A DNA stretch of 64,000 nt, from positions 39,532-103,531 of the forward strand of contig JBHLKM010000002.1 of NCBI GenBank assembly GCA_048886685.1, in the 5' to 3' direction. The number at the start of each line of letters is the position of its first letter. Within the stretch, counting starts at the first letter, position 1. This DNA is from Candidatus Hodarchaeota archaeon. GTDB lineage: Archaea > Asgardarchaeota > Lokiarchaeia > Sigyniarchaeales > SOKP01. The translations under genes were made by a program, and so were the position numbers. The notes below the pieces were generated by a model. It was not told the origin of the DNA. It did not search any database and was given only the letters and a program-made list of their open reading frames with translations. Below are positions 16,241-23,895 of this stretch, piece by piece.

Positions 16241-16326
16241 ATTTTTTTCTATGAATATAATTCAATATTTATATAATTCATTCTCTTTATTTTTATTTAT
16301 ACAAATTAAAAAAATCTATACATGAA

Positions 16327-17052
16327 ATGTCATTAGATCCTTTAGATACGTTAAATGGAATATTTTCTCTTGTTTTTGTGGCAATATCTTTATTCGTGGG
16401 CTTTATAATAATCTCTCGATATTTTAAATACAAGGAAAGAGTATATCTTTTAGTTGGTGCTACTTGGGTTTTAATAGCTTCCCCTTGGTGGCCCTCTTGT
16501 ATCTCATTTCTGGTAGCTCTTTCTAATGGCGTTGGAATTACACCTGAATTCTACTTTTTGATAGGAAATATACCTGTCCCCTTGGCAGTGGCACTATGGC
16601 TATTGGCTTTTACAGAGTTCTTATACTCAGAAAAACGTAAGTTAATTCTTTCTATATTCACAGTAATTGGCTTAATCTTTGAAATTTTATTTCTTGTGTT
16701 TCTTTTTCTTAATTCGGATTTTATTGGTGAATTGAACGGGCCCGTAGACGTAAATTATAAATCTTTCATAATGTTTTTTTTGATATCCTATTTACTAATC
16801 GTTGTTATTACTGGATTTTTATTTGCAAATCTTTCTTTAAAATCAAAAGATCCCGAAGTAAAACTTAAAGGTAAATTATTGGTACTCGCATATATCTTCT
16901 TTTCAGTGGGGGCTTTATTAGATTCATCCATACCTTTAAATGAGACATTAATCATAATAACAAGACTAATCTTAATATTAAGTGCATTCTTTTGGTATTC
17001 TGGGTTCTTACTACCAAGGTGGTTGAAAAAATATCTTTTAAAAACAAAGTAA
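16327..17052 (+). CDS. Standalone seven-TM membrane protein (HisKA_7TM-like sensor fold suspected)
   Basis: Seven hydrophobic segments by eye; basic amphipathic tail LPRWLKKYLLK; no soluble domain. Confidence 0.65.
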   Translation: MSLDPLDTLNGIFSLVFVAISLFVGFIIISRYFKYKERVYLLVGATWVLIASPWWPSCISFLVALSNGVGITPEFYFLIGNIPVPLAVALWLLAFTEFLYSEKRKLILSIFTVIGLIFEILFLVFLFLNSDFIGELNGPVDVNYKSFIMFFLISYLLIVVITGFLFANLSLKSKDPEVKLKGKLLVLAYIFFSVGALLDSSIPLNETLIIITRLILILSAFFWYSGFLLPRWLKKYLLKTK

Positions 17053-17151
17053 CCTTTCTATTTTTTCTCTATATTACTTAGATATTATCCAGATTCATAT
17101 TTTTTTTCAATCCATTGTTTCTTAATAATTCATTTAAAGTCATGAATCGTA

Positions 17152-17673
17152 ATGTTAAGTTCAGAACTCGAAAAATTGGTGAAGTTAACGCTTATAGGGT
17201 GTCCCGCTGTTGGAAAAACCACCATAGTTAAACTCTTATCAGAAAATACATTAGATCGCTTTTATATTCCAACTCATGGATTGGATTTAAAATCTATAAA
17301 GTTTGATGATTATTATTTAAGACTTTGGGATTTGGGGGGACAGAATAGTTATTTAAGAACATACTCAAAAGATTACTTGCTTGGATCCGATATTATTTTC
17401 GTAGTAACAGACTCTACACCTCGAAATGTATTAAACTCAAGAGAATTAATTAACTATGCATATCATTTTGTGGGGAAAGAATGTCCGATCATCGCAATAG
17501 CGAATAAGCAGGATTTAAAAGATGGTAGAATGGATGCTAAAAGAGTTGAGGATCTTCTACATGTGAAAACATATGGATTAACAGCTATAGAACCAGCAGA
17601 AAAAATGAAATTAATGAAAATAATAAAAAATGAATTAGAAAAAATCGCAATTAGGAGGGGATTAAAGAAATGA
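17152..17673 (+). CDS. Arf/Rag-like small GTPase with intact motifs
   Basis: GCPAVGKTT, YIPTHG, WDLGGQ, NKQD, LTA. Confidence 0.9.
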   Translation: MLSSELEKLVKLTLIGCPAVGKTTIVKLLSENTLDRFYIPTHGLDLKSIKFDDYYLRLWDLGGQNSYLRTYSKDYLLGSDIIFVVTDSTPRNVLNSRELINYAYHFVGKECPIIAIANKQDLKDGRMDAKRVEDLLHVKTYGLTAIEPAEKMKLMKIIKNELEKIAIRRGLKK

Positions 17674-18230
17674 ATTTTAATGAAGAAGAATTATTTGGGG
17701 CTGCTTTAATTGGATTTGATATGATTGATGGCCCTTTCCTTAAATGGAAAAAAGAATATAATAAAACAAAAAATATGGTAAAGTTAGATGATTTTGCAAT
17801 GAATTTTTATCTCGCCTTTCGAGGTGGAAATGCATCAGGGAAAAAGCCTAGAGCTATTTTATATGACAATTTTTACATAGTAGCTTTTCCAAGAGATTTG
17901 GAGCTCTGTTGTTTGTTTATGAAACCTGAAGATCTTGATGAAAATATTAAGCAATTAAATAAAGTAGCATGTAGAATTATTACAGAAATGGAAATAATAG
18001 AAGAAAATAAAGCAGAAGAACAAGAAGATTCAGATGAAAATACCGTAGAAGAAATAATGAGAATAATTCCTAATTTATTAACAGGAACTAAGATGACGAC
18101 TCCTGAATTGAGAAGATATTTCAAACTTAGTAACTCTCAAATTTGGAAAATAATGTCTGATTTAGAAAATTCGAAAAAAATCAAACGTTCAGAAAAAAAA
18201 GGAAGAGCTCAACTTTGGACGGCACTTTAA
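17670..18230 (+). CDS. Longin/uDENN-like domain plus C-terminal winged helix
   Basis: LIGFDMIDGP hairpin signature, b-b-a-b-b-b-a pattern, acidic linker, wH MTTPELRRYFKLSNSQIWKIMSDLE; ATGA overlap with the GTPase stop. Confidence 0.6.
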   Translation: MNFNEEELFGAALIGFDMIDGPFLKWKKEYNKTKNMVKLDDFAMNFYLAFRGGNASGKKPRAILYDNFYIVAFPRDLELCCLFMKPEDLDENIKQLNKVACRIITEMEIIEENKAEEQEDSDENTVEEIMRIIPNLLTGTKMTTPELRRYFKLSNSQIWKIMSDLENSKKIKRSEKKGRAQLWTAL

Positions 18231-18262: not shown

Positions 18263-19078
18263 TTATCTTGTCCTATGATCCCAACCTTTCTCCTTAGTAT
18301 AAAGACGAGAAAACATAATATAGCAAATATCAGGTAATTCCTTCTCTAAATTGTGCACTGTAATATATCGAAGAATATGATTCAAAACGAATATACCAAC
18401 AAATTCAGCATGATAACTTCCTAAGTTTTTTTCTAATTTGTTTCCGTGAAATTTAATATCTAATCCATTCTCCTTTTCCCACATAATCTCTGTGAAGATT
18501 TCTGGGAAAATTTCCTTTTTAATTAGCCAACCATTAACAGTTTTCCATACCCTAGCTCCTAAAAAAACCTCAAGTTTTTCTTGATCTTTTTCTAGCAAGA
18601 ATTTGAATGGTTCAGCTCTTTGTAATAATACCTTTTGCATCAAATCTGATTTTGAGTTATAATTCTTTTCAAATGGCTCCTCTTTTTTTAACTTTCTTTC
18701 AATAAAATCCATGACAATATCGATAAAAGTTGCACTATCTTCACCAGGCACCCAAATAACATGCTTACCCGAGAAATAAAATTTAAATTCTGCTTCAATT
18801 CCATCTCCAAATTCATCCCCAAAATAAGTATATGCCATATGAATGTTTACTTCAGGAAACATTTCGAGAGTAATAGTCCAATCCTCGCTAAAACCAATAT
18901 TTTCAATTATTCCCCCAAGATCATTGTTAACTATTGATTCAAGGGCATTTAAATCAACATTTAAGAAGATAGAATATTTATTTTTACTAATATCTCCTAA
19001 TTCTTTCTCATGGGGCCCTCTTACGCCTGTAGCATCAATTTGTCCAATAGTCATGAATTTCCTATTTTCAGAAGGCAT
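18263..19078 (-). CDS. Hypothetical protein with internal duplication (DUF3786-like)
   Basis: WTITLEMFPEVNIHMAY..GDEF and WLIKKEIFPEIFTEIMW repeats. Confidence 0.5.
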   Translation of the reverse strand: MPSENRKFMTIGQIDATGVRGPHEKELGDISKNKYSIFLNVDLNALESIVNNDLGGIIENIGFSEDWTITLEMFPEVNIHMAYTYFGDEFGDGIEAEFKFYFSGKHVIWVPGEDSATFIDIVMDFIERKLKKEEPFEKNYNSKSDLMQKVLLQRAEPFKFLLEKDQEKLEVFLGARVWKTVNGWLIKKEIFPEIFTEIMWEKENGLDIKFHGNKLEKNLGSYHAEFVGIFVLNHILRYITVHNLEKELPDICYIMFSRLYTKEKGWDHRTR

Positions 19079-20508: not shown

Positions 20509-23500
20509 TTATTGTAATTCAGCCGGCATTATTAATCCTTTTCTTTTTAATGAAATAATTATGCTAATAATCTCGTCTCTCGAAGCTTTTCTCCCCGCTA
20601 AACCAAAATTCAAAAGACTTGATACAAAAAAGAATTTCCTTTCTTTCTGTATTTCCTCCGCTAATTCTACAAGATCTTTTTCTAAACCTTTTAACTTTAC
20701 TACTCCGTAATGTTTTCCTAATTGAAGTGGATAAACGAAGGTAACATTGAAGAATCTTTCAATTAAATCATCAGCGGCTCTGAAAGGAGTAATATCTCCC
20801 ATAAAATTCTTCAAATTGGGTTCAAATCTTCTTTCAAAAGATTCTGTGAATGCTATTTGACTTTCTTTTAATTTTTCAGAAGGAATGCCGTCTAATATCA
20901 AGGCTACTCGAACATAATCTCCATCGGTGATAACAATTTTAAAATCATAATAATCCATTTCAAAACCCTTACCTCTTGGGGTTTTTTCTGCATCTTTTTT
21001 AATCTCAGTTCTAAATTGTGAAATGGCTTGTAAAAATCCTGAAATTAAATCTGAATCAATCCCTTCTAAAGAAATTTGCTTATCAAAAATTGAGACTCCA
21101 CTATCTTTTTCAATTATCATTATATAAGCAATTTTCAATAAATCATCTAAAATTTTAGCTTCACCCGCCCAAAATCTTCTTTGTCTCGAATGTCTAATAT
21201 GTCTTACCGTAACAAACGTTATAGCAGCAGCCAAACCTGCTATTATATAAGGTAAATAACGCATAAACGTATCCATGAAAAGTATAAACTCCGACACAAC
21301 TTTAATATATCCTGAAACGATTTCCGCGCTTGTATACATCCCCTCTTCTGCAAATGTAGCTCGAACAGAAAATCTACTACCAGTATTTTCGAATTTTAAA
21401 GAAGCTGTTGCCACTCCTTGATCATTGGTTACTGCCGTAGTTTCATATAAAGTAATATTATTAGCATTTAGTACTTCAAAGATTATTTCAACATTCTCTA
21501 ATGATTTTCCTCCTGGCTCAAAAACTCTAGCGGAAATGAATCTAGTTCCTGTCATATACTGAGAGGCAGGAGGTTCGATAAACTCTATGATGGGTTCTAT
21601 TTTAAAAATTTCATACGTCCCATTGACGTCAAAGCGTATAGAATGCCATTTGGATATAACATTGAATTCAAAAAACCCGTGAGAAATATCAGCGTTATCA
21701 ATATCTGCTTCCCATGTTCCCATACCAATTCCATTATCAAGCACATCTACCCCGAAATTTTGTAATTCTATTTCTGACGCAGTTAACGTATTGCTATTGA
21801 TTCCTAAGCCCAAAGATGACGAGATATCTGAAGATATTGCATTTTGTATATAAAAATTCACATTAAATTCGTTAATAGAAACAGTAAAACCATAATCGGA
21901 TGATGAGTTTGAGAGATATCTCAACCGAAATTTTACTTGATTATTTTCAGATTCATTTAATAATTGTAAAAGAATCCAGGTAAACCCTGCGTCAAAAGGT
22001 AATAAATCTGTAGTTTCATCCAGATGAGCGAGTGTTCGATTCTCACTTATTAAAATCCAATCTTTGTCATTTTGATTTTGATCAAAAAAGTCAAATGTTT
22101 CATTACCTTTATAGAGCTCTAATACCGCAAAATCTAAATTGTCTGGTTTGCTCACATTAGAACTAATTCTTACATGTATTTGCGGAATGATTGGATTTGG
22201 ATAAGAAACAATCCAATCGTAGAAATCTATGTTCCAGAGAGAGCTATCAAGATCTCCTAAAACGTTTAATGTGAATTCAATAGAAATATTGCTTGTTAAT
22301 GCTTGAGCTCTATATTTATCATCATCGTTGAATTCAAGGAAATCAACAGTCTGATTGCCAAAAGGTATAGTGGTTCCATTAATAACGTTTACATCATTTG
22401 GAACGAAAAATTCTTGGATTAAGGGATCATACCTTTGGATTGTATCGAGGTTGTCCAGCTCTCCTATTTCAACCTTAAATTGATTAATTGATGCAGTAGC
22501 ATTAGCACCCCCATCTGTTATATATTCAAATTTAAATCTAAGAGTATTATTTTTCAATGGACCGATATCCATAACATGTAGGAAAAATAATTTTTCTTCT
22601 GGATCGCGTGCTGAGTAATAAAAAGAATATTCACTTTCTCTTATTATATTGAGTCCAAGATCTATCCATTTTGGTTGGAATAATCCTGCTTTAAAATTAT
22701 AAACTGATAAATTTGCAGATTTTATATGAGAACTGTCAGAAATATTTAATGTGAAATAAAAATCAAAACTAAATATATATCTATAGTGTTCAAACCACCA
22801 ATTAATAAGCTCAGGTTTCAGTGCTCGCAAATATAATTCCCAATAATTAAATGGAGAATTTTTTAAGTTTTTTAAATCAAACTGAATGTCTATTGTTAAA
22901 TTATTTAAATCAGTTGCAGTATATCTATCTTCATCAATAGTTTTAAAAGATTCTGGGGTTCCTTGAGGAGCTAATAAATATCCACTTGTAACCTGGGCTC
23001 GCTCTACATCATTTACTGTATAATTATCAAAATAAAAATCAGGTGAGATAGCAAAAGTATCTCCTTCTCCTATATCTTCACTATCAGGATTAAAATATAA
23101 GAATTTAGGACCACCACCAGAGAGCTCATCGTCAGGAGGTAGCTTAATTCGAAATGCAAACCAGTATTTATTGACACTTCCTTCAGTTGTCATATTAGTT
23201 TTTGAAGTATCTAGGAAAATTGGTCCAGATTCAGAATTTTTAAAATCAAAAACTTCCCAATGAGCAGCATAGATTATAGGATGAGGTTTTTGTAAAACAC
23301 CCAAATTTTCTACTGTGTTAGGCGTTCCATCATTAGAGCAGTTCACAATAGCCACTTCCCATGAATTTTCATCTGTAAAAGAAGTAGGATTATTAATATC
23401 CTGGATAAGAATACTCACATTATTTATGTATTGACTTATTTCAACTGCAAATTTTTGATAAATATAAGTAGGTTCAACTCGAGAACTAGAAATAAACTCA

Positions 23501-23895
23501 GAAAAGTCATTTTCTATATAGCGAGTATAATTAACTGCTGTAATGTTCTCAAAGGACATTTTTGCATGTGAAATATTATAGTTTGGAATATAAATGCTAG
23601 GTTGGACATTTAAACCTGGTTGATCTCGGTTGATATAACAATACTTACTGATACTTGTGATATTACTAAATATTTTTCCTGTACGGTTAATAGCTTGAGG
23701 GTAGAGTGGATAAGAATTTCCTTGCGAATCTGCTGCTGGAAAAATAATAGATTTAGAGTTATAAACTGGAATAATTATAAAGGATATTAAAAGAAAAGTA
23801 ATGAGCATTTTGTTATTAATAGTTTTCATTTGTAAAAACCTCATTTTTTTTAAAATATAAAGAACAACTTTAGTTACAAATGAGAGATCAGACAT
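20509..23895 (-). CDS. Large single-pass surface protein with cytoplasmic longin-like and wH domains
   Basis: Signal-like N-terminus, N/S/T-rich beta ectodomain, Ig-like TNDQGVAT segment, TM YLPYIIAGLAAAITFV, then IMIIEKDSGVSIF..DSDLISGFLQAI. Confidence 0.75.
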   Translation of the reverse strand: MSDLSFVTKVVLYILKKMRFLQMKTINNKMLITFLLISFIIIPVYNSKSIIFPAADSQGNSYPLYPQAINRTGKIFSNITSISKYCYINRDQPGLNVQPSIYIPNYNISHAKMSFENITAVNYTRYIENDFSEFISSSRVEPTYIYQKFAVEISQYINNVSILIQDINNPTSFTDENSWEVAIVNCSNDGTPNTVENLGVLQKPHPIIYAAHWEVFDFKNSESGPIFLDTSKTNMTTEGSVNKYWFAFRIKLPPDDELSGGGPKFLYFNPDSEDIGEGDTFAISPDFYFDNYTVNDVERAQVTSGYLLAPQGTPESFKTIDEDRYTATDLNNLTIDIQFDLKNLKNSPFNYWELYLRALKPELINWWFEHYRYIFSFDFYFTLNISDSSHIKSANLSVYNFKAGLFQPKWIDLGLNIIRESEYSFYYSARDPEEKLFFLHVMDIGPLKNNTLRFKFEYITDGGANATASINQFKVEIGELDNLDTIQRYDPLIQEFFVPNDVNVINGTTIPFGNQTVDFLEFNDDDKYRAQALTSNISIEFTLNVLGDLDSSLWNIDFYDWIVSYPNPIIPQIHVRISSNVSKPDNLDFAVLELYKGNETFDFFDQNQNDKDWILISENRTLAHLDETTDLLPFDAGFTWILLQLLNESENNQVKFRLRYLSNSSSDYGFTVSINEFNVNFYIQNAISSDISSSLGLGINSNTLTASEIELQNFGVDVLDNGIGMGTWEADIDNADISHGFFEFNVISKWHSIRFDVNGTYEIFKIEPIIEFIEPPASQYMTGTRFISARVFEPGGKSLENVEIIFEVLNANNITLYETTAVTNDQGVATASLKFENTGSRFSVRATFAEEGMYTSAEIVSGYIKVVSEFILFMDTFMRYLPYIIAGLAAAITFVTVRHIRHSRQRRFWAGEAKILDDLLKIAYIMIIEKDSGVSIFDKQISLEGIDSDLISGFLQAISQFRTEIKKDAEKTPRGKGFEMDYYDFKIVITDGDYVRVALILDGIPSEKLKESQIAFTESFERRFEPNLKNFMGDITPFRAADDLIERFFNVTFVYPLQLGKHYGVVKLKGLEKDLVELAEEIQKERKFFFVSSLLNFGLAGRKASRDEIISIIISLKRKGLIMPAELQ

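What the first reader, a model, noticed from the sequence alone, without database searches (positions are those of the whole stretch)
16327..18230. Candidate GPCR-like module: 7TM protein, small GTPase, longin regulator
Seen: three co-oriented genes: a standalone seven-TM protein with a helix-8-like basic tail and no catalytic output, an intact Arf/Rag-like GTPase 99 nt downstream, and a translationally coupled longin+wH protein. Known: G-alpha subunits are related to the Arf branch, and longin domains act as GEFs or GAPs. Inference: a receptor-GTPase-regulator switch analogous to GPCR or Rag signalling, the best candidate for an undescribed system here. Caveat: T tracts between 17052 and 17152 could end transcription, and such 7TM genes may be common enough for adjacency by chance.
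Basis: inference. Interest (0 to 1): 0.85.

Follow-up and report, generated by a model that had tools for sequence, protein, structure and literature searches.

The report
Arf-like GTPase and longin partner operon
In this Loki-type Asgard archaeon, a small Arf-like GTPase gene and a translationally coupled longin-plus-winged-helix gene form a conserved two-gene operon, while the seven-helix membrane gene upstream is only a lineage-specific neighbour, so the proposed GPCR-like three-part receptor module is not supported.

Summary
The three co-oriented genes exist as described. They are a 241-aa protein with seven TM helices, N-out/C-in, and a short basic C-terminal helix (AF2 pLDDT 92); an intact 173-aa Arf-like GTPase; and a 186-aa longin + winged-helix protein whose ATG overlaps the GTPase stop.

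The receptor-GTPase-regulator reading does not hold. GTPase and longin-wHTH stay adjacent and overlapping in five families of the phylum, down to about 30% identity. The 7TM gene lies upstream only in genus g1 and one other genus. In genera g14 and g16 the pair directly follows DUF2070. In two g1 genomes an opposite-strand gene separates the 7TM gene from the pair.

A conserved, genome-unique element (17081-17100) and a TATA-like box lie between the 7TM gene and the GTPase, and they travel with the pair.

The 7TM protein belongs to a large paralogous family (3-42 copies per genome, about 1,100 representatives). The family shows no enrichment next to GTPases: 3 of 61 copies within 1 kb, about 3 expected. 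Its fold resembles GPCR 7TM domains only at a level common for helical bundles (Z 9.5-11.9).

One caveat remains. A second paralogue sits beside another Arf-like GTPase in three genera.

Verdict: a real GTPase/longin-wHTH operon, a new variant of a known kind. The GPCR-like trio is unsupported.

The parts
16296..16304 (+). TATA-like box (TTTATACAA) 23-31 nt upstream of the 7TM ATG, with no Shine-Dalgarno. Suggests a separate promoter and a leaderless-type start for the 7TM gene (inference).
   Evidence: Read from the sequence. A T7 tract at 16242-16248 follows the DUF2070 stop.
16327..17052 (+). 7TM membrane protein, 241 aa, N-out/C-in, with a GPCR-like helix arrangement. It is a member of a large Lokiarchaeial paralogous family and is NOT part of the conserved unit.
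   Evidence: pLDDT 92.3; fold matches; family size; no conserved linkage.
17061..17107 (+). Two oligo-T tracts (T6 at 17061-17066, T8 at 17100-17107) downstream of the 7TM stop. They are candidate archaeal terminators. The second abuts the conserved element.
   Evidence: read from the sequence. Function as terminators is inferred.
17070..17100 (+). Conserved non-coding element TATATTACTTAGATATTATCCAGATTCATAT (core 17081-17100), with ATATTA-type repeats about 11 nt apart. Candidate operator or upstream promoter element of the GTPase operon.
   Evidence: The core occurs with 4 or fewer mismatches, ending about 50-53 nt before the GTPase ATG, in nearly all g1 and g14 loci, including those without a 7TM gene upstream. 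It is unique in the own genome: no other site has 2 or fewer mismatches. No Rfam match.
17122..17129 (+). TATA-like box TTAATAAT, 23-30 nt before the GTPase ATG, with no SD. Suggests a leaderless or short-leader operon mRNA (inference).
   Evidence: This block is conserved in the alignment of upstream regions across g1, g14, g16, g12 and g15. Sequence.
17152..17673 (+). Arf-like small GTPase, 173 aa, first gene of the operon.
   Evidence: Pfam Arf 2.2e-19. PDB: Arl3 3.9e-15. Invariant G1-G5 motifs and the family signature VTDSTPxNVL across deep orthologues.
17653..17660 (+). Shine-Dalgarno AGGAGGGG, 9 nt before the ORF3 ATG and inside the GTPase coding region. The ATGA start/stop overlap is at 17670-17673.
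   Evidence: Overlap or abutment of the two genes is conserved in all pair-bearing loci.
17670..18230 (+). Longin + winged-helix protein, 186 aa. Longin domain at residues about 6-119 (nt 17685-18026), acidic linker, wHTH at residues 126-186 (nt 18045-18227).
   Evidence: AF2 model; Foldseek; VIA-align; alignment A1 with invariant F16, D17, G21, P22, N45, Y47, F50, G52, G53 and P60.

Best explanation
The functional unit is a two-gene operon at 17152-18230, not a trio.

Gene 1 encodes an intact Arf-like small GTPase. Gene 2 is translated by coupling: a strong SD lies inside gene 1 and the start and stop overlap as ATGA. Gene 2 encodes a protein with an N-terminal longin domain and a C-terminal ArsR/MarR-type winged helix-turn-helix.

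The operon carries its own upstream region. This consists of a conserved, genome-unique repeat element about 52-82 nt before the ATG and a TATA-like box at about -26.

Proposed mechanism (inferred). The longin domain is the cognate platform for the GTPase and binds its switch regions, as longin/roadblock proteins do for SR-beta (SRX), Rab (TRAPP, Mon1-Ccz1), Rag (Ragulator, GATOR1) and MglA (MglB). It acts as regulator (GEF or GAP) or as effector. The nucleotide state of the GTPase would then control what the wHTH does, most simply binding to the conserved upstream element (autoregulation), or alternatively dimerisation or partner binding.

The 7TM gene upstream is a separately transcribed member of a large, lineage-specific 7TM family with a GPCR-like helix arrangement. 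It came to lie next to the operon only in genus g1 (and g15).
For: SHOWN
1. The GTPase and the ORF3 homologue are adjacent, co-oriented and overlapping or abutting in families f1 (genera g1, g12-g16), f2, f11, f12 and f18, down to 30-36% ORF3 identity.
2. The upstream gene varies. It is a 7TM gene in g1 and g15; DUF2070 directly in g14 and g16 (gap about 120-150 nt); unrelated genes elsewhere.
3. In G006 and G023 (g1) an opposite-strand gene lies between the 7TM gene and the pair.
4. The 20-nt core at 17081-17100 recurs with 4 or fewer mismatches, ending about 50-53 nt before the ATG, in nearly all g1 and g14 loci whatever lies upstream. It is unique in the genome.
5. An SD plus ATGA overlap precedes ORF3; there is no SD before the GTPase.
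6. ORF3 fold: longin order, with Z about 10 to TRAPP longins and 8.8 to a Lokiarchaeota longin domain; wHTH with Z 10.7 and rmsd 1.7 A.
7. The GTPase has intact G1-G5 motifs and a family-specific signature across orthologues.
8. The 7TM family has 3-42 copies per genome and about 1,111 representatives. Copies within 1 kb of a GTPase: 0 of 36, 1 of 21 and 2 of 4 in three genomes, pooled 3 of 61 against about 3.0 expected.
9. The closest 7TM relatives outside g1 have no neighbouring small GTPase.

INFERRED
Longin-GTPase binding, the GEF/GAP/effector role, DNA binding by the wHTH, operator function of the element, and promoter and terminator assignments.
Against: - No physical interaction was predicted or measured; no multimer prediction was available.
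- The ORF3 model is only moderately confident (pLDDT 70), and the longin assignment rests on fold, not sequence (no Pfam hit).
- The C-terminal domain is not conserved with the pair. It is a wHTH in f1 and f2, a different and possibly HhH-like domain in f12 and f18, and absent in f11. DNA binding therefore cannot be the core function of the pair.
- No Arg in ORF3 is invariant across the deep alignment, so an arginine-finger GAP is not supported.
- The most distant longin-only homologues (f10, f17, f20, f21) have no adjacent GTPase.
- Against dismissing the 7TM gene: within g1 the adjacency is kept in 21 of 23 genomes. g15 also has 7TM genes upstream of the pair. A second paralogue (7TM_B) lies beside another Arf-like GTPase in g1, g14 and g15. 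GPCR TM domains are the top fold matches.
Confidence: 0.75

Rival explanations
1. Proto-GPCR module. The 7TM protein is a receptor that signals through the adjacent Arf-like GTPase, with the longin protein as its GEF or GAP.
For: - The genes are co-oriented and adjacent in 21 of 23 g1 genomes, and 7TM genes lie upstream of the pair in g15.
- Topology is N-out/C-in with a basic helix-8-like tail.
- GPCR TM domains are the best fold matches: Foldseek E 5e-4 with TM 0.46-0.56; VIA-align Z 9.5-11.9 over about 210-225 residues.
- A second paralogue, 7TM_B, sits next to a different Arf-like GTPase in g1, g14 and g15.
- A 2026 preprint reports Asgard-eukaryote structural clusters annotated as GPCRs (10.64898/2026.10.28.762692).
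Against: - The pair is conserved without the 7TM gene in g12, g13, g14, g16, f2, f11, f12 and f18.
- Opposite-strand genes are inserted between the 7TM gene and the pair in two g1 genomes.
- The pair's own conserved element and TATA-like box, plus T-tracts, lie in the gap.
- The 7TM family shows no enrichment near GTPases (3 of 61 against about 3 expected).
- 7TM_B and its GTPase are convergent, so they are not an operon.
- Within-family synteny is general: DUF2070, ORF271 and RsmB are conserved there too.
- Z below 13 is common for helical bundles.
- There is no Pfam 7tm family hit and no E/DRY or NPxxY motif (sequence).
- No 7TM form of 423 to 2000 residues, the range where one fused to a GTPase or longin domain would fall, was found (weak evidence).
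Confidence: 0.08
2. The pair is an MglA/MglB-like or Rag/Ragulator-like polarity or trafficking switch with no role in transcription. The wHTH is a protein-protein or dimerisation module, as winged helices are in ESCRT-II or GATOR1, and the conserved upstream element is simply the promoter.
For: - The C-terminal domain is replaceable or absent in deep orthologues, while the GTPase-longin core is kept.
- Foldseek also hits the Nprl2/Nprl3 (GATOR1) and Ragulator chains.
- Longin/roadblock platforms for small GTPases are established knowledge (Levine et al. 2013, PMC3747258, listed).
Against: - The best C-domain matches are DNA-binding ArsR/SmtB/MarR regulators at rmsd 1.6-1.8 A.
- The wing is strongly basic (KRSEKKGRAQLW).
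- The upstream element is longer and better conserved than a TATA/BRE needs to be, sits upstream of the TATA-like box, and is unique in the genome.
Confidence: 0.15

Closest known systems
Small GTPase + longin/roadblock partner systems: SR-beta/SRX, MglA/MglB, Rag/Ragulator-GATOR1, Rab/TRAPP or Mon1-Ccz1
   Same: A Ras-superfamily GTPase is paired with a small alpha/beta longin/roadblock-superfold protein. In prokaryotes (mglA-mglB) the two genes are adjacent. SR-beta, like this GTPase, is Arf-like, and its partner SRX is longin-like. The ORF3 N-domain matches TRAPP longins, Ragulator and GATOR1 chains.
   Different: The partner here has the longin order (beta-beta-alpha-beta-beta-beta-alpha), not the roadblock order of MglB. 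It is fused to a wHTH. It has no sequence-level match to any of these families. No invariant Arg is present. GEF, GAP or effector activity is untested.
Asgard Arf-family GTPases (AArfs; PMC11914678; bioRxiv 10.1101/2024.02.28.582541) and the Asgard small GTPase / roadblock / longin survey (Tran et al. 2024, PMC10933270)
   Same: An Arf-like GTPase of a Lokiarchaeial genome. It shares the WDxGGQ motif, and solved Asgard Arf structures (8oul, 8ouk) are among its PDB relatives. Some AArfs are fused to longin domains.
   Different: Here the longin protein is a separate, translationally coupled gene. [quoted passage not shown] There is no long N-terminal amphipathic helix and no Gly2, so membrane anchoring of the Arf type is unlikely.
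Eukaryotic GPCR / G-alpha signalling
   Same: The 7TM protein has N-out/C-in topology and a short amphipathic C-terminal helix, and its best fold matches are GPCR TM domains. The GTPase shares the DxGGQ switch II motif with Arf and G-alpha (partial Pfam G-alpha hit, 21.5 bits).
   Different: - There is no Pfam GPCR family match and no E/DRY or NPxxY motif.
- The fold score lies in the range common for helical bundles.
- The GTPase has no G-alpha helical domain (173 aa; G-alpha score below the 48.8-bit cut-off).
- The gene linkage is not conserved, and the genes appear to be transcribed separately.
Prokaryotic 7TM sensor modules (Pfam HisKA_7TM, 7TMR-DISM) and the Asgard GPCR-like 7TM clusters of a 2026 preprint (10.64898/2026.10.28.762692); archaeal GPCR-like 7TM folds in PMC13581589
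   Same: A standalone 7TM bundle of about 240 aa. One family representative matches HisKA_7TM over its full length at E 2e-5. The ESM Atlas's nearest named cluster carries HisKA_7TM. The literature already reports GPCR-like 7TM folds in archaea, including Asgard.
   Different: Only 1 of 76 and 1 of 20 members give any HisKA_7TM signal. Profile-profile comparison with genuine HisKA_7TM from the same phylum gives a probability of 4.5%. There is no kinase or other output domain. I could not establish whether this family is one of the published clusters.

Membership tests
Arf-family small GTPase | Pfam Arf score above the gathering cut-off | tested here: met
   70.1 bits against a cut-off of 22.3, E 2.2e-19. 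The nearest PDB sequences are Arl3, Arl2, Arf1 and Arl8.
Arf-family small GTPase | Intact G1-G5 motifs with the Arf-type WDxGGQ switch II | tested here: met
   GCPAVGKT, PT(41), WDLGGQ, NKQD and TAI are present. They are invariant or nearly so across 11 deep orthologues; Gln64 is His in f11 and f12.
Arf-family small GTPase | N-terminal amphipathic helix, usually with myristoylated Gly2, for membrane insertion | tested here: not met
   Only about 10 residues (MLSSELEKLVK) precede beta-1, and there is no Gly2 (sequence). The protein is therefore 'Arf-like', not a canonical Arf.
Heterotrimeric G-alpha | Helical insertion domain and a full-length G-alpha profile match | tested here: not met
   The protein is 173 aa. 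The Pfam G-alpha hit is partial (residues 36-86) and scores 21.5 bits against a cut-off of 48.8.
Longin domain | Secondary-structure order beta-beta-alpha-beta-beta-beta-alpha and structural match to solved longin domains | tested here: met
   AF2 elements: E8-17, E21-29, H39-45, E61-64, E69-75, E78-84, H90-117. VIA-align: TRAPPII chain 7u05_D Z 10.3 (108 aa, rmsd 3.0); synbindin 2zmv Z 9.6; Tca17 3pr6 Z 9.5; Lokiarchaeota longin 8yqg Z 8.8. Caveat: the model's pLDDT is about 70 and is lower in the alpha-1 loop.
Longin domain | Sequence-profile membership (Pfam Longin, Sedlin, Robl_LC7 and the like) | tested here: not met
   No Pfam or NCBIfam family hits the N-domain. An A1 profile against PDB sequences finds nothing relevant.
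ArsR/MarR-type winged helix-turn-helix | alpha-beta-alpha-alpha-beta-beta fold superposing on DNA-binding wHTH regulators | tested here: met
   Residues 126-186: Z 10.7, rmsd 1.7 A over 61 aa to PH1932/ArsR homologues 2cwe and 1uly; many ArsR/SmtB/MarR/Z-alpha entries at Z 9-10. Weak Pfam FaeA hit, E 0.005. DNA binding itself cannot be tested with these tools.
GPCR (eukaryotic 7TM receptor) | Seven TM helices, N-out/C-in, with the GPCR helix arrangement | tested here: inconclusive
   Seven helices and the topology are met. Foldseek's top hits are class C and class A GPCRs at E 5e-4 to 4e-3, TM 0.46-0.56, rmsd 6-8 A. VIA-align wide gives Z 9.5-11.9, with ACER3 ceramidase at 11.5. This is below the Z of about 13 at which helical-bundle matches stand out.
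GPCR (eukaryotic 7TM receptor) | Sequence-family membership or class motifs (E/DRY, NPxxY, CWxP) | tested here: not met
   No Pfam 7tm_* hit for the protein or for 20 + 76 family members. The TM3 end reads FTEFLY and TM7 reads FFWYSGFLLP (sequence).
GPCR (eukaryotic 7TM receptor) | Coupling to a G protein, with conserved genomic linkage to the GTPase as the proxy here | tested here: not met
   Linkage is confined to g1 and g15. The pair is conserved without the 7TM gene elsewhere. The 7TM family shows no enrichment near GTPases. Physical coupling cannot be tested with these tools.
HisKA_7TM (PF16927) | Profile match to the 7TM sensor region of histidine kinases | tested here: inconclusive
   P0273 scores E 2e-5 and 25 bits against a cut-off of 28.6. 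One further member scores E 0.0046. Only 1 of 76 representatives match. hhalign against nine genuine HisKA_7TM domains gives probability 4.5%.
MglA/MglB-type module | Partner protein with the Roadblock/LC7 order (alpha-beta-beta-alpha-beta-beta-beta) and an adjacent GTPase gene | tested here: inconclusive
   The adjacent gene pair is met. The partner has the longin order, not the roadblock order, although roadblock structures such as MK-D1 Roadblock2 9jq8 are among the Foldseek hits.

The most novel reading that the evidence does not exclude
Particular subfamilies of this expanded 7TM family with a GPCR-like fold really are receptors for neighbouring Arf-like GTPases in some Lokiarchaeia. Two separate loci would fit this. 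One is 7TM_A with GTPase_A and the longin-wHTH protein. The other is 7TM_B, flanked by a 367-aa protein and a convergent GTPase_B, conserved in g1, g14 and g15. That would be a prokaryotic forerunner of 7TM-to-GTPase signalling. The evidence here neither requires nor strictly excludes it.
Probability: 0.08. Interest if true: 0.9.

Novelty: new variant of a known kind. Interest (0 to 1): 0.45.

Why it matters
Asgard archaea encode about a hundred small GTPases per genome and many longin/roadblock proteins. Which regulator serves which GTPase is unknown, because these genes are said not to lie in operons (Tran et al. 2024, PMC10933270).

This locus gives a rare cognate pair defined by the genome: an Arf-like GTPase with a translationally coupled longin protein, conserved across five families. 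It could be expressed and assayed directly for GEF, GAP or effector activity.

The fusion of the longin domain to a DNA-binding-type wHTH, together with a conserved, genome-unique upstream element, raises a testable idea: a small-GTPase switch that feeds into transcription.

Showing that the '7TM + GTPase' adjacency is lineage-specific guards against over-reading it as a proto-GPCR system. It also flags a large, unannotated 7TM family with a GPCR-like fold in Lokiarchaeia.

Tried and rejected
1. Genus-level synteny as evidence for the trio. Rejected, because the whole neighbourhood (DUF2070, ORF271, RsmB) is collinear in g1.
2. Family-wide association of 7TM genes with GTPases. Tested in G193, G195 and the own genome, with no enrichment.
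3. ORF3 related to the 367-aa protein upstream of 7TM_B. There is a visual 'GP' hairpin resemblance, but BLASTP and hhalign find nothing. PDB profile and ESM Atlas searches give no name.
4. ORF3 related to the cytoplasmic tail of the 1128-aa membrane protein at 20509-23895. No BLASTP similarity.
5. Split/fused 'Rosetta stone' between ORF3's wHTH and the small wHTH genes next to the distant longin genes (f11, f17). Those are PF0610-like wHTH + zinc-ribbon proteins with no detectable similarity to the ORF3 C-domain.
6. 7TM family as HisKA_7TM. Hints only; hhalign probability 4.5%.
7. Longer, fused forms of the 7TM protein. None were found among proteins of 423-2000 aa (weak evidence). The 336-361 aa forms carry a RING/C1-like zinc finger or extra TM helices, not a GTPase or longin domain.
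8. Independent recruitment of 7TM genes to the locus in g1 and g15. The tree places the g15 copies with a g64 copy, but the AU test does not reject one clade (p 0.205), so this is undecided.
9. The upstream element as a known RNA. No Rfam match.
10. Arginine-finger GAP. No Arg is invariant in the deep ORF3 alignment: R51 and R61 are replaced in f2 and in distant families.
Full report
**Observation**

The window is G000:C2:39532-103531 of a 4.4-Mb, about 30% GC assembly. The closest database homologues are annotated as Promethearchaeota or Lokiarchaeia MAG proteins.

*The 241-aa protein.* It has seven hydrophobic segments. A very confident AF2 model (pLDDT 92.3, pTM 0.86) shows seven TM helices, a beta-hairpin in the TM4-TM5 loop and a short helix at 231-238 in a basic tail. 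Basic loops follow TM1, TM3 and TM5, and the tail is basic. This gives N-out/C-in by the positive-inside rule, read from the sequence. It has no Pfam or NCBIfam match.

*The 173-aa protein.* It is an intact Arf-like GTPase. Pfam Arf scores 70.1 bits against a cut-off of 22.3. The motifs GCPAVGKT, PT, WDLGGQ and NKQD are present. The nearest solved relatives are Arl3, Arl2 and Arf1, with Asgard Arf structures further down the list. It is not a G-alpha: it has no helical domain and only a partial, sub-threshold Pfam hit.

*The 186-aa protein.* It has no Pfam domain. Its AF2 model (pLDDT 70) has the longin order beta-beta-alpha-beta-beta-beta-alpha followed by a winged helix.
- Foldseek returns roadblock/longin-superfold chains: Ragulator, GATOR1 Nprl, MK-D1 Roadblock2, VAMP7 longin.
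- VIA-align gives Z about 10 over 108 residues to TRAPP longin subunits and 8.8 to a Lokiarchaeota longin domain.
- For residues 126-186, VIA-align gives Z 10.7 at rmsd 1.7 A to ArsR/MarR-type wHTH regulators.

**Is the trio a unit?**

*Within genus g1.* The order DUF2070 - 7TM - GTPase - ORF3 - (reverse) ORF271 - RsmB is kept in 21 of 23 genomes. Every neighbour is kept as well, so this is general synteny and says nothing specific.

*Deeper comparisons.* Searching ORF3 across 150 genomes of the phylum found homologues in 43.
- In every locus from families f1 (genera g1, g12-g16), f2, f11, f12 and f18, a GTPase orthologue lies immediately upstream. It is co-oriented and overlapping or abutting, down to 30-36% ORF3 identity.
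- The gene upstream of the GTPase varies. It is a 7TM gene only in g1 and g15.
- In g14 and g16, DUF2070 is followed directly by the GTPase, with a gap of about 120-150 nt and no room for a gene.
- In g12, g13, f2, f11, f12 and f18 the upstream genes are unrelated.
- In two g1 genomes (G006, G023), an opposite-strand gene is inserted between the 7TM gene and the pair.
- The closest relatives of the 7TM protein outside g1 (44-49% identity; g13, g14, g16, g62, g64, g65) sit in unrelated neighbourhoods with no small GTPase next to them.

**The gap between the 7TM gene and the GTPase**

Aligning the 140 nt upstream of the GTPase start from 21 loci shows two conserved blocks.
- One is an element with core GATATTATCCAGATTCATAT (window 17081-17100), preceded by a similar ATATTAC repeat about 11 nt earlier.
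- The other is a TTAATAA-type box (17122-17129) at the distance expected for an archaeal TATA box if the mRNA is leaderless.

The core recurs with 4 or fewer mismatches, ending about 50-53 nt before the ATG, in nearly all g1 and g14 loci. This holds where the upstream gene is DUF2070 or an inserted gene. g16 and g13 carry diverged versions, and g12 and g15 share a different version. In the own genome no other site matches with 2 or fewer mismatches, and the region has no Rfam match.

The GTPase has no Shine-Dalgarno. ORF3 has AGGAGGGG 9 nt before its ATG plus the ATGA overlap. The 7TM gene has its own TATA-like box 23-31 nt upstream and no SD. T-tracts follow the stops of DUF2070, the 7TM gene and ORF3.

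The conservation is shown. The promoter, operator and terminator roles are inferred. Together they indicate that the 7TM gene is monocistronic and the GTPase-ORF3 pair is a separate bicistronic operon.

**Is adjacency of this 7TM family to GTPases more than chance?**

The genome has 97 Arf-model matches. The 7TM protein belongs to a paralogous family with 3-8 copies per genome in g1 and up to 42 in other genera of the same taxonomic family. A profile search of 1.84 billion representatives finds 1,111 family members, nearly all about 240 aa.

| Genome | 7TM copies | GTPase matches | Observed near a GTPase | Expected |
|---|---|---|---|---|
| G193 | 36 | 85 | 0 within 2 kb | 2.8 |
| G195 | 21 | 61 | 1 within 1 kb | 0.99 |
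| Own genome | 4 | 97 | 2 adjacent | about 0.2 (rough) |
| Pooled, within 1 kb | 61 | | 3 | about 3.0 |

There is no family-level association.

**A caveat taken seriously**

The second adjacent case in the own genome is paralogue B, which lies outside the window (G000:C2:135529-136287). It sits between a 367-aa protein of unknown family and a convergent 230-aa Arf-like GTPase.
- This three-gene arrangement is conserved in g1, g14 and g15, in g15 with different outer flanks. The GTPase is missing in one g1 genome.
- The convergent orientation excludes an operon.
- g1 and g14 are collinear over the whole block.
- The 367-aa protein shows no sequence or profile similarity to ORF3.
- A tree of 35 family members does not resolve whether the 7TM genes at the g15 locus are orthologues of the g1 gene. 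They group with a g64 copy at 99/94, but the AU test for one clade gives p 0.205.

I read this as local synteny.

**What is the 7TM family?**

- Foldseek against PDB puts class C (mGlu, CaSR) and class A GPCR TM domains first, at E 5e-4 to 4e-3, TM 0.46-0.56, rmsd 6-8 A.
- An independent all-representative VIA-align search also ranks GPCR-fold chains first, at Z 9.5-11.9 over about 210-225 residues. A 7TM ceramidase scores 11.5. By the tool's own calibration this is a range common for helical bundles.
- No member matches a Pfam GPCR family, and class A motifs are absent (sequence).
- Hints of kinship to HisKA_7TM are not borne out by profile-profile comparison, which gives probability 4.5%.
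- A few members carry a C-terminal RING/C1-like zinc finger.
- GPCR-like 7TM folds in archaea, and Asgard-eukaryote structural clusters annotated as GPCRs, have been reported recently (PMC13581589; bioRxiv 10.64898/2026.10.28.762692). I could not tell whether this family is among them.

**Mechanism proposed for the real unit**

*Shown.* An Arf-like GTPase family has invariant nucleotide-binding motifs and its own signature VTDSTPxNVL. It is always followed by a longin-fold protein with invariant FD...GP and NxY..F.GG motifs.

*Inferred from established knowledge of longin/roadblock platforms* (SRX/SR-beta, TRAPP, Mon1-Ccz1, Ragulator/GATOR1, MglB; Levine et al. 2013, PMC3747258). The longin domain binds the switch regions of its cognate GTPase and acts as GEF, GAP or effector. 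No Arg is invariant across the deep alignment, so an arginine-finger GAP is not favoured.

*Inferred.* In f1 and f2 the longin domain is fused to an ArsR/MarR-type wHTH with a basic wing. The operon is preceded by a conserved, genome-unique repeat element upstream of the TATA-like box, so the simplest model is GTPase-controlled autoregulation.

*Against this as the core function.* The C-terminal domain differs in f12 and f18 (possibly HhH-like; IMS_HHH E 0.07). It is absent in f11. The most distant longin-only homologues have no adjacent GTPase.

**Comparison with what is known, and novelty**

Small GTPase plus longin/roadblock partner is a known kind of system. Asgard Arf-like GTPases and longin proteins are well documented, including longin-AArf fusions. 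Tran et al. (2024) state that small GTPase genes of MK-D1 are not generally in operons with roadblock, longin or TRAPPC3 genes, which makes cognate pairs hard to assign.

A deeply conserved, translationally coupled Arf-like GTPase / longin-wHTH operon with its own conserved upstream element is therefore a new variant of a known kind and a convenient experimental entry point. The headline claim of the finding, a GPCR-like three-component module, is not supported.

**Verdict**

| Item | Judgement |
|---|---|
| Observation | confirmed |
| Confidence in the two-gene-operon reading | 0.75 |
| Interest | 0.45 |

The same stretch was also noted by first readers in overlapping windows (e1-5571627, e1-5571638), without follow-up.

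Noticed in passing
L051:3312-6015 (= G000:C2:134311-137014, outside the window): A second 7TM paralogue (252 aa, 42% identical) lies between a 367-aa protein of unknown family (N-terminus ...HWNKQTGPEPIIQYPP...) and a convergent 230-aa Arf-like GTPase. The arrangement is conserved in g1, g14 and g15, and the GTPase is lost in one g1 genome.
   Followed up: partly
window 16327-17052 and family members P0241-P0390: The 7TM protein belongs to an unannotated family that is greatly expanded in this archaeal family: 3-42 copies per genome and 1,111 representatives at 50% identity. It has conserved intramembrane E119, D199 and R213. A few members carry a C-terminal RING/C1-like zinc finger (P0271, P0310, P0387).
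   Followed up: partly
window 20509-23895 (-): A 1128-aa single-pass membrane protein with an Ig-like (Big_1) domain. It has no BLASTP similarity to ORF3. Its homologue stays near the pair in g16 (L033).
   Followed up: partly
window 18263-19078 (-): A 271-aa protein with no Pfam match (MPSENRKFMTIGQIDATGVRGPHEKEL...). It is convergent with ORF3 and conserved in that position in g1, g12, g14, g15 (duplicated there) and g16, but not in g13 or f2.
   Followed up: no
L047:2394-2735, L072:2029-2352, L077:2224-2541: In families f11 and f17, a PF0610-like wHTH + zinc-ribbon gene lies divergently next to the longin gene (in f11, next to the GTPase-longin pair). It is not detectably related to ORF3's wHTH.
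   Followed up: partly
L046:1246-1833, L048:1300-1866, L050:1456-2034: Distant ORF3 orthologues (f12, f18) replace the wHTH with a different C-terminal domain. It contains an IRGLGPKR motif reminiscent of helix-hairpin-helix (Pfam IMS_HHH, E 0.07 only).
   Followed up: no
L070:2425-2982 (-) and L069:2281-3963 (-): Two g1 genomes carry different opposite-strand insertions between the 7TM gene and the GTPase operon: another 185-aa small GTPase in G023 and a 560-aa protein in G006. The spot therefore tolerates insertions.
   Followed up: no
L056:4026-5831 and L067:1042-2847: One 7TM subfamily lies next to a 601-aa translation-factor-type GTPase (HIDHGKTSLL, IF2/aIF5B-like by eye) in two genera (g16, g65). 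This is probably plain synteny.
   Followed up: no
L073:3089-3520 and L076:1832-2263: In family f21, the longin-only ORF3 homologue is divergent from a 143-aa protein (MAIRNLYVFK...LVAGFFSAIQS) that looks roadblock/longin-like by eye. It has no Pfam hit.
   Followed up: no
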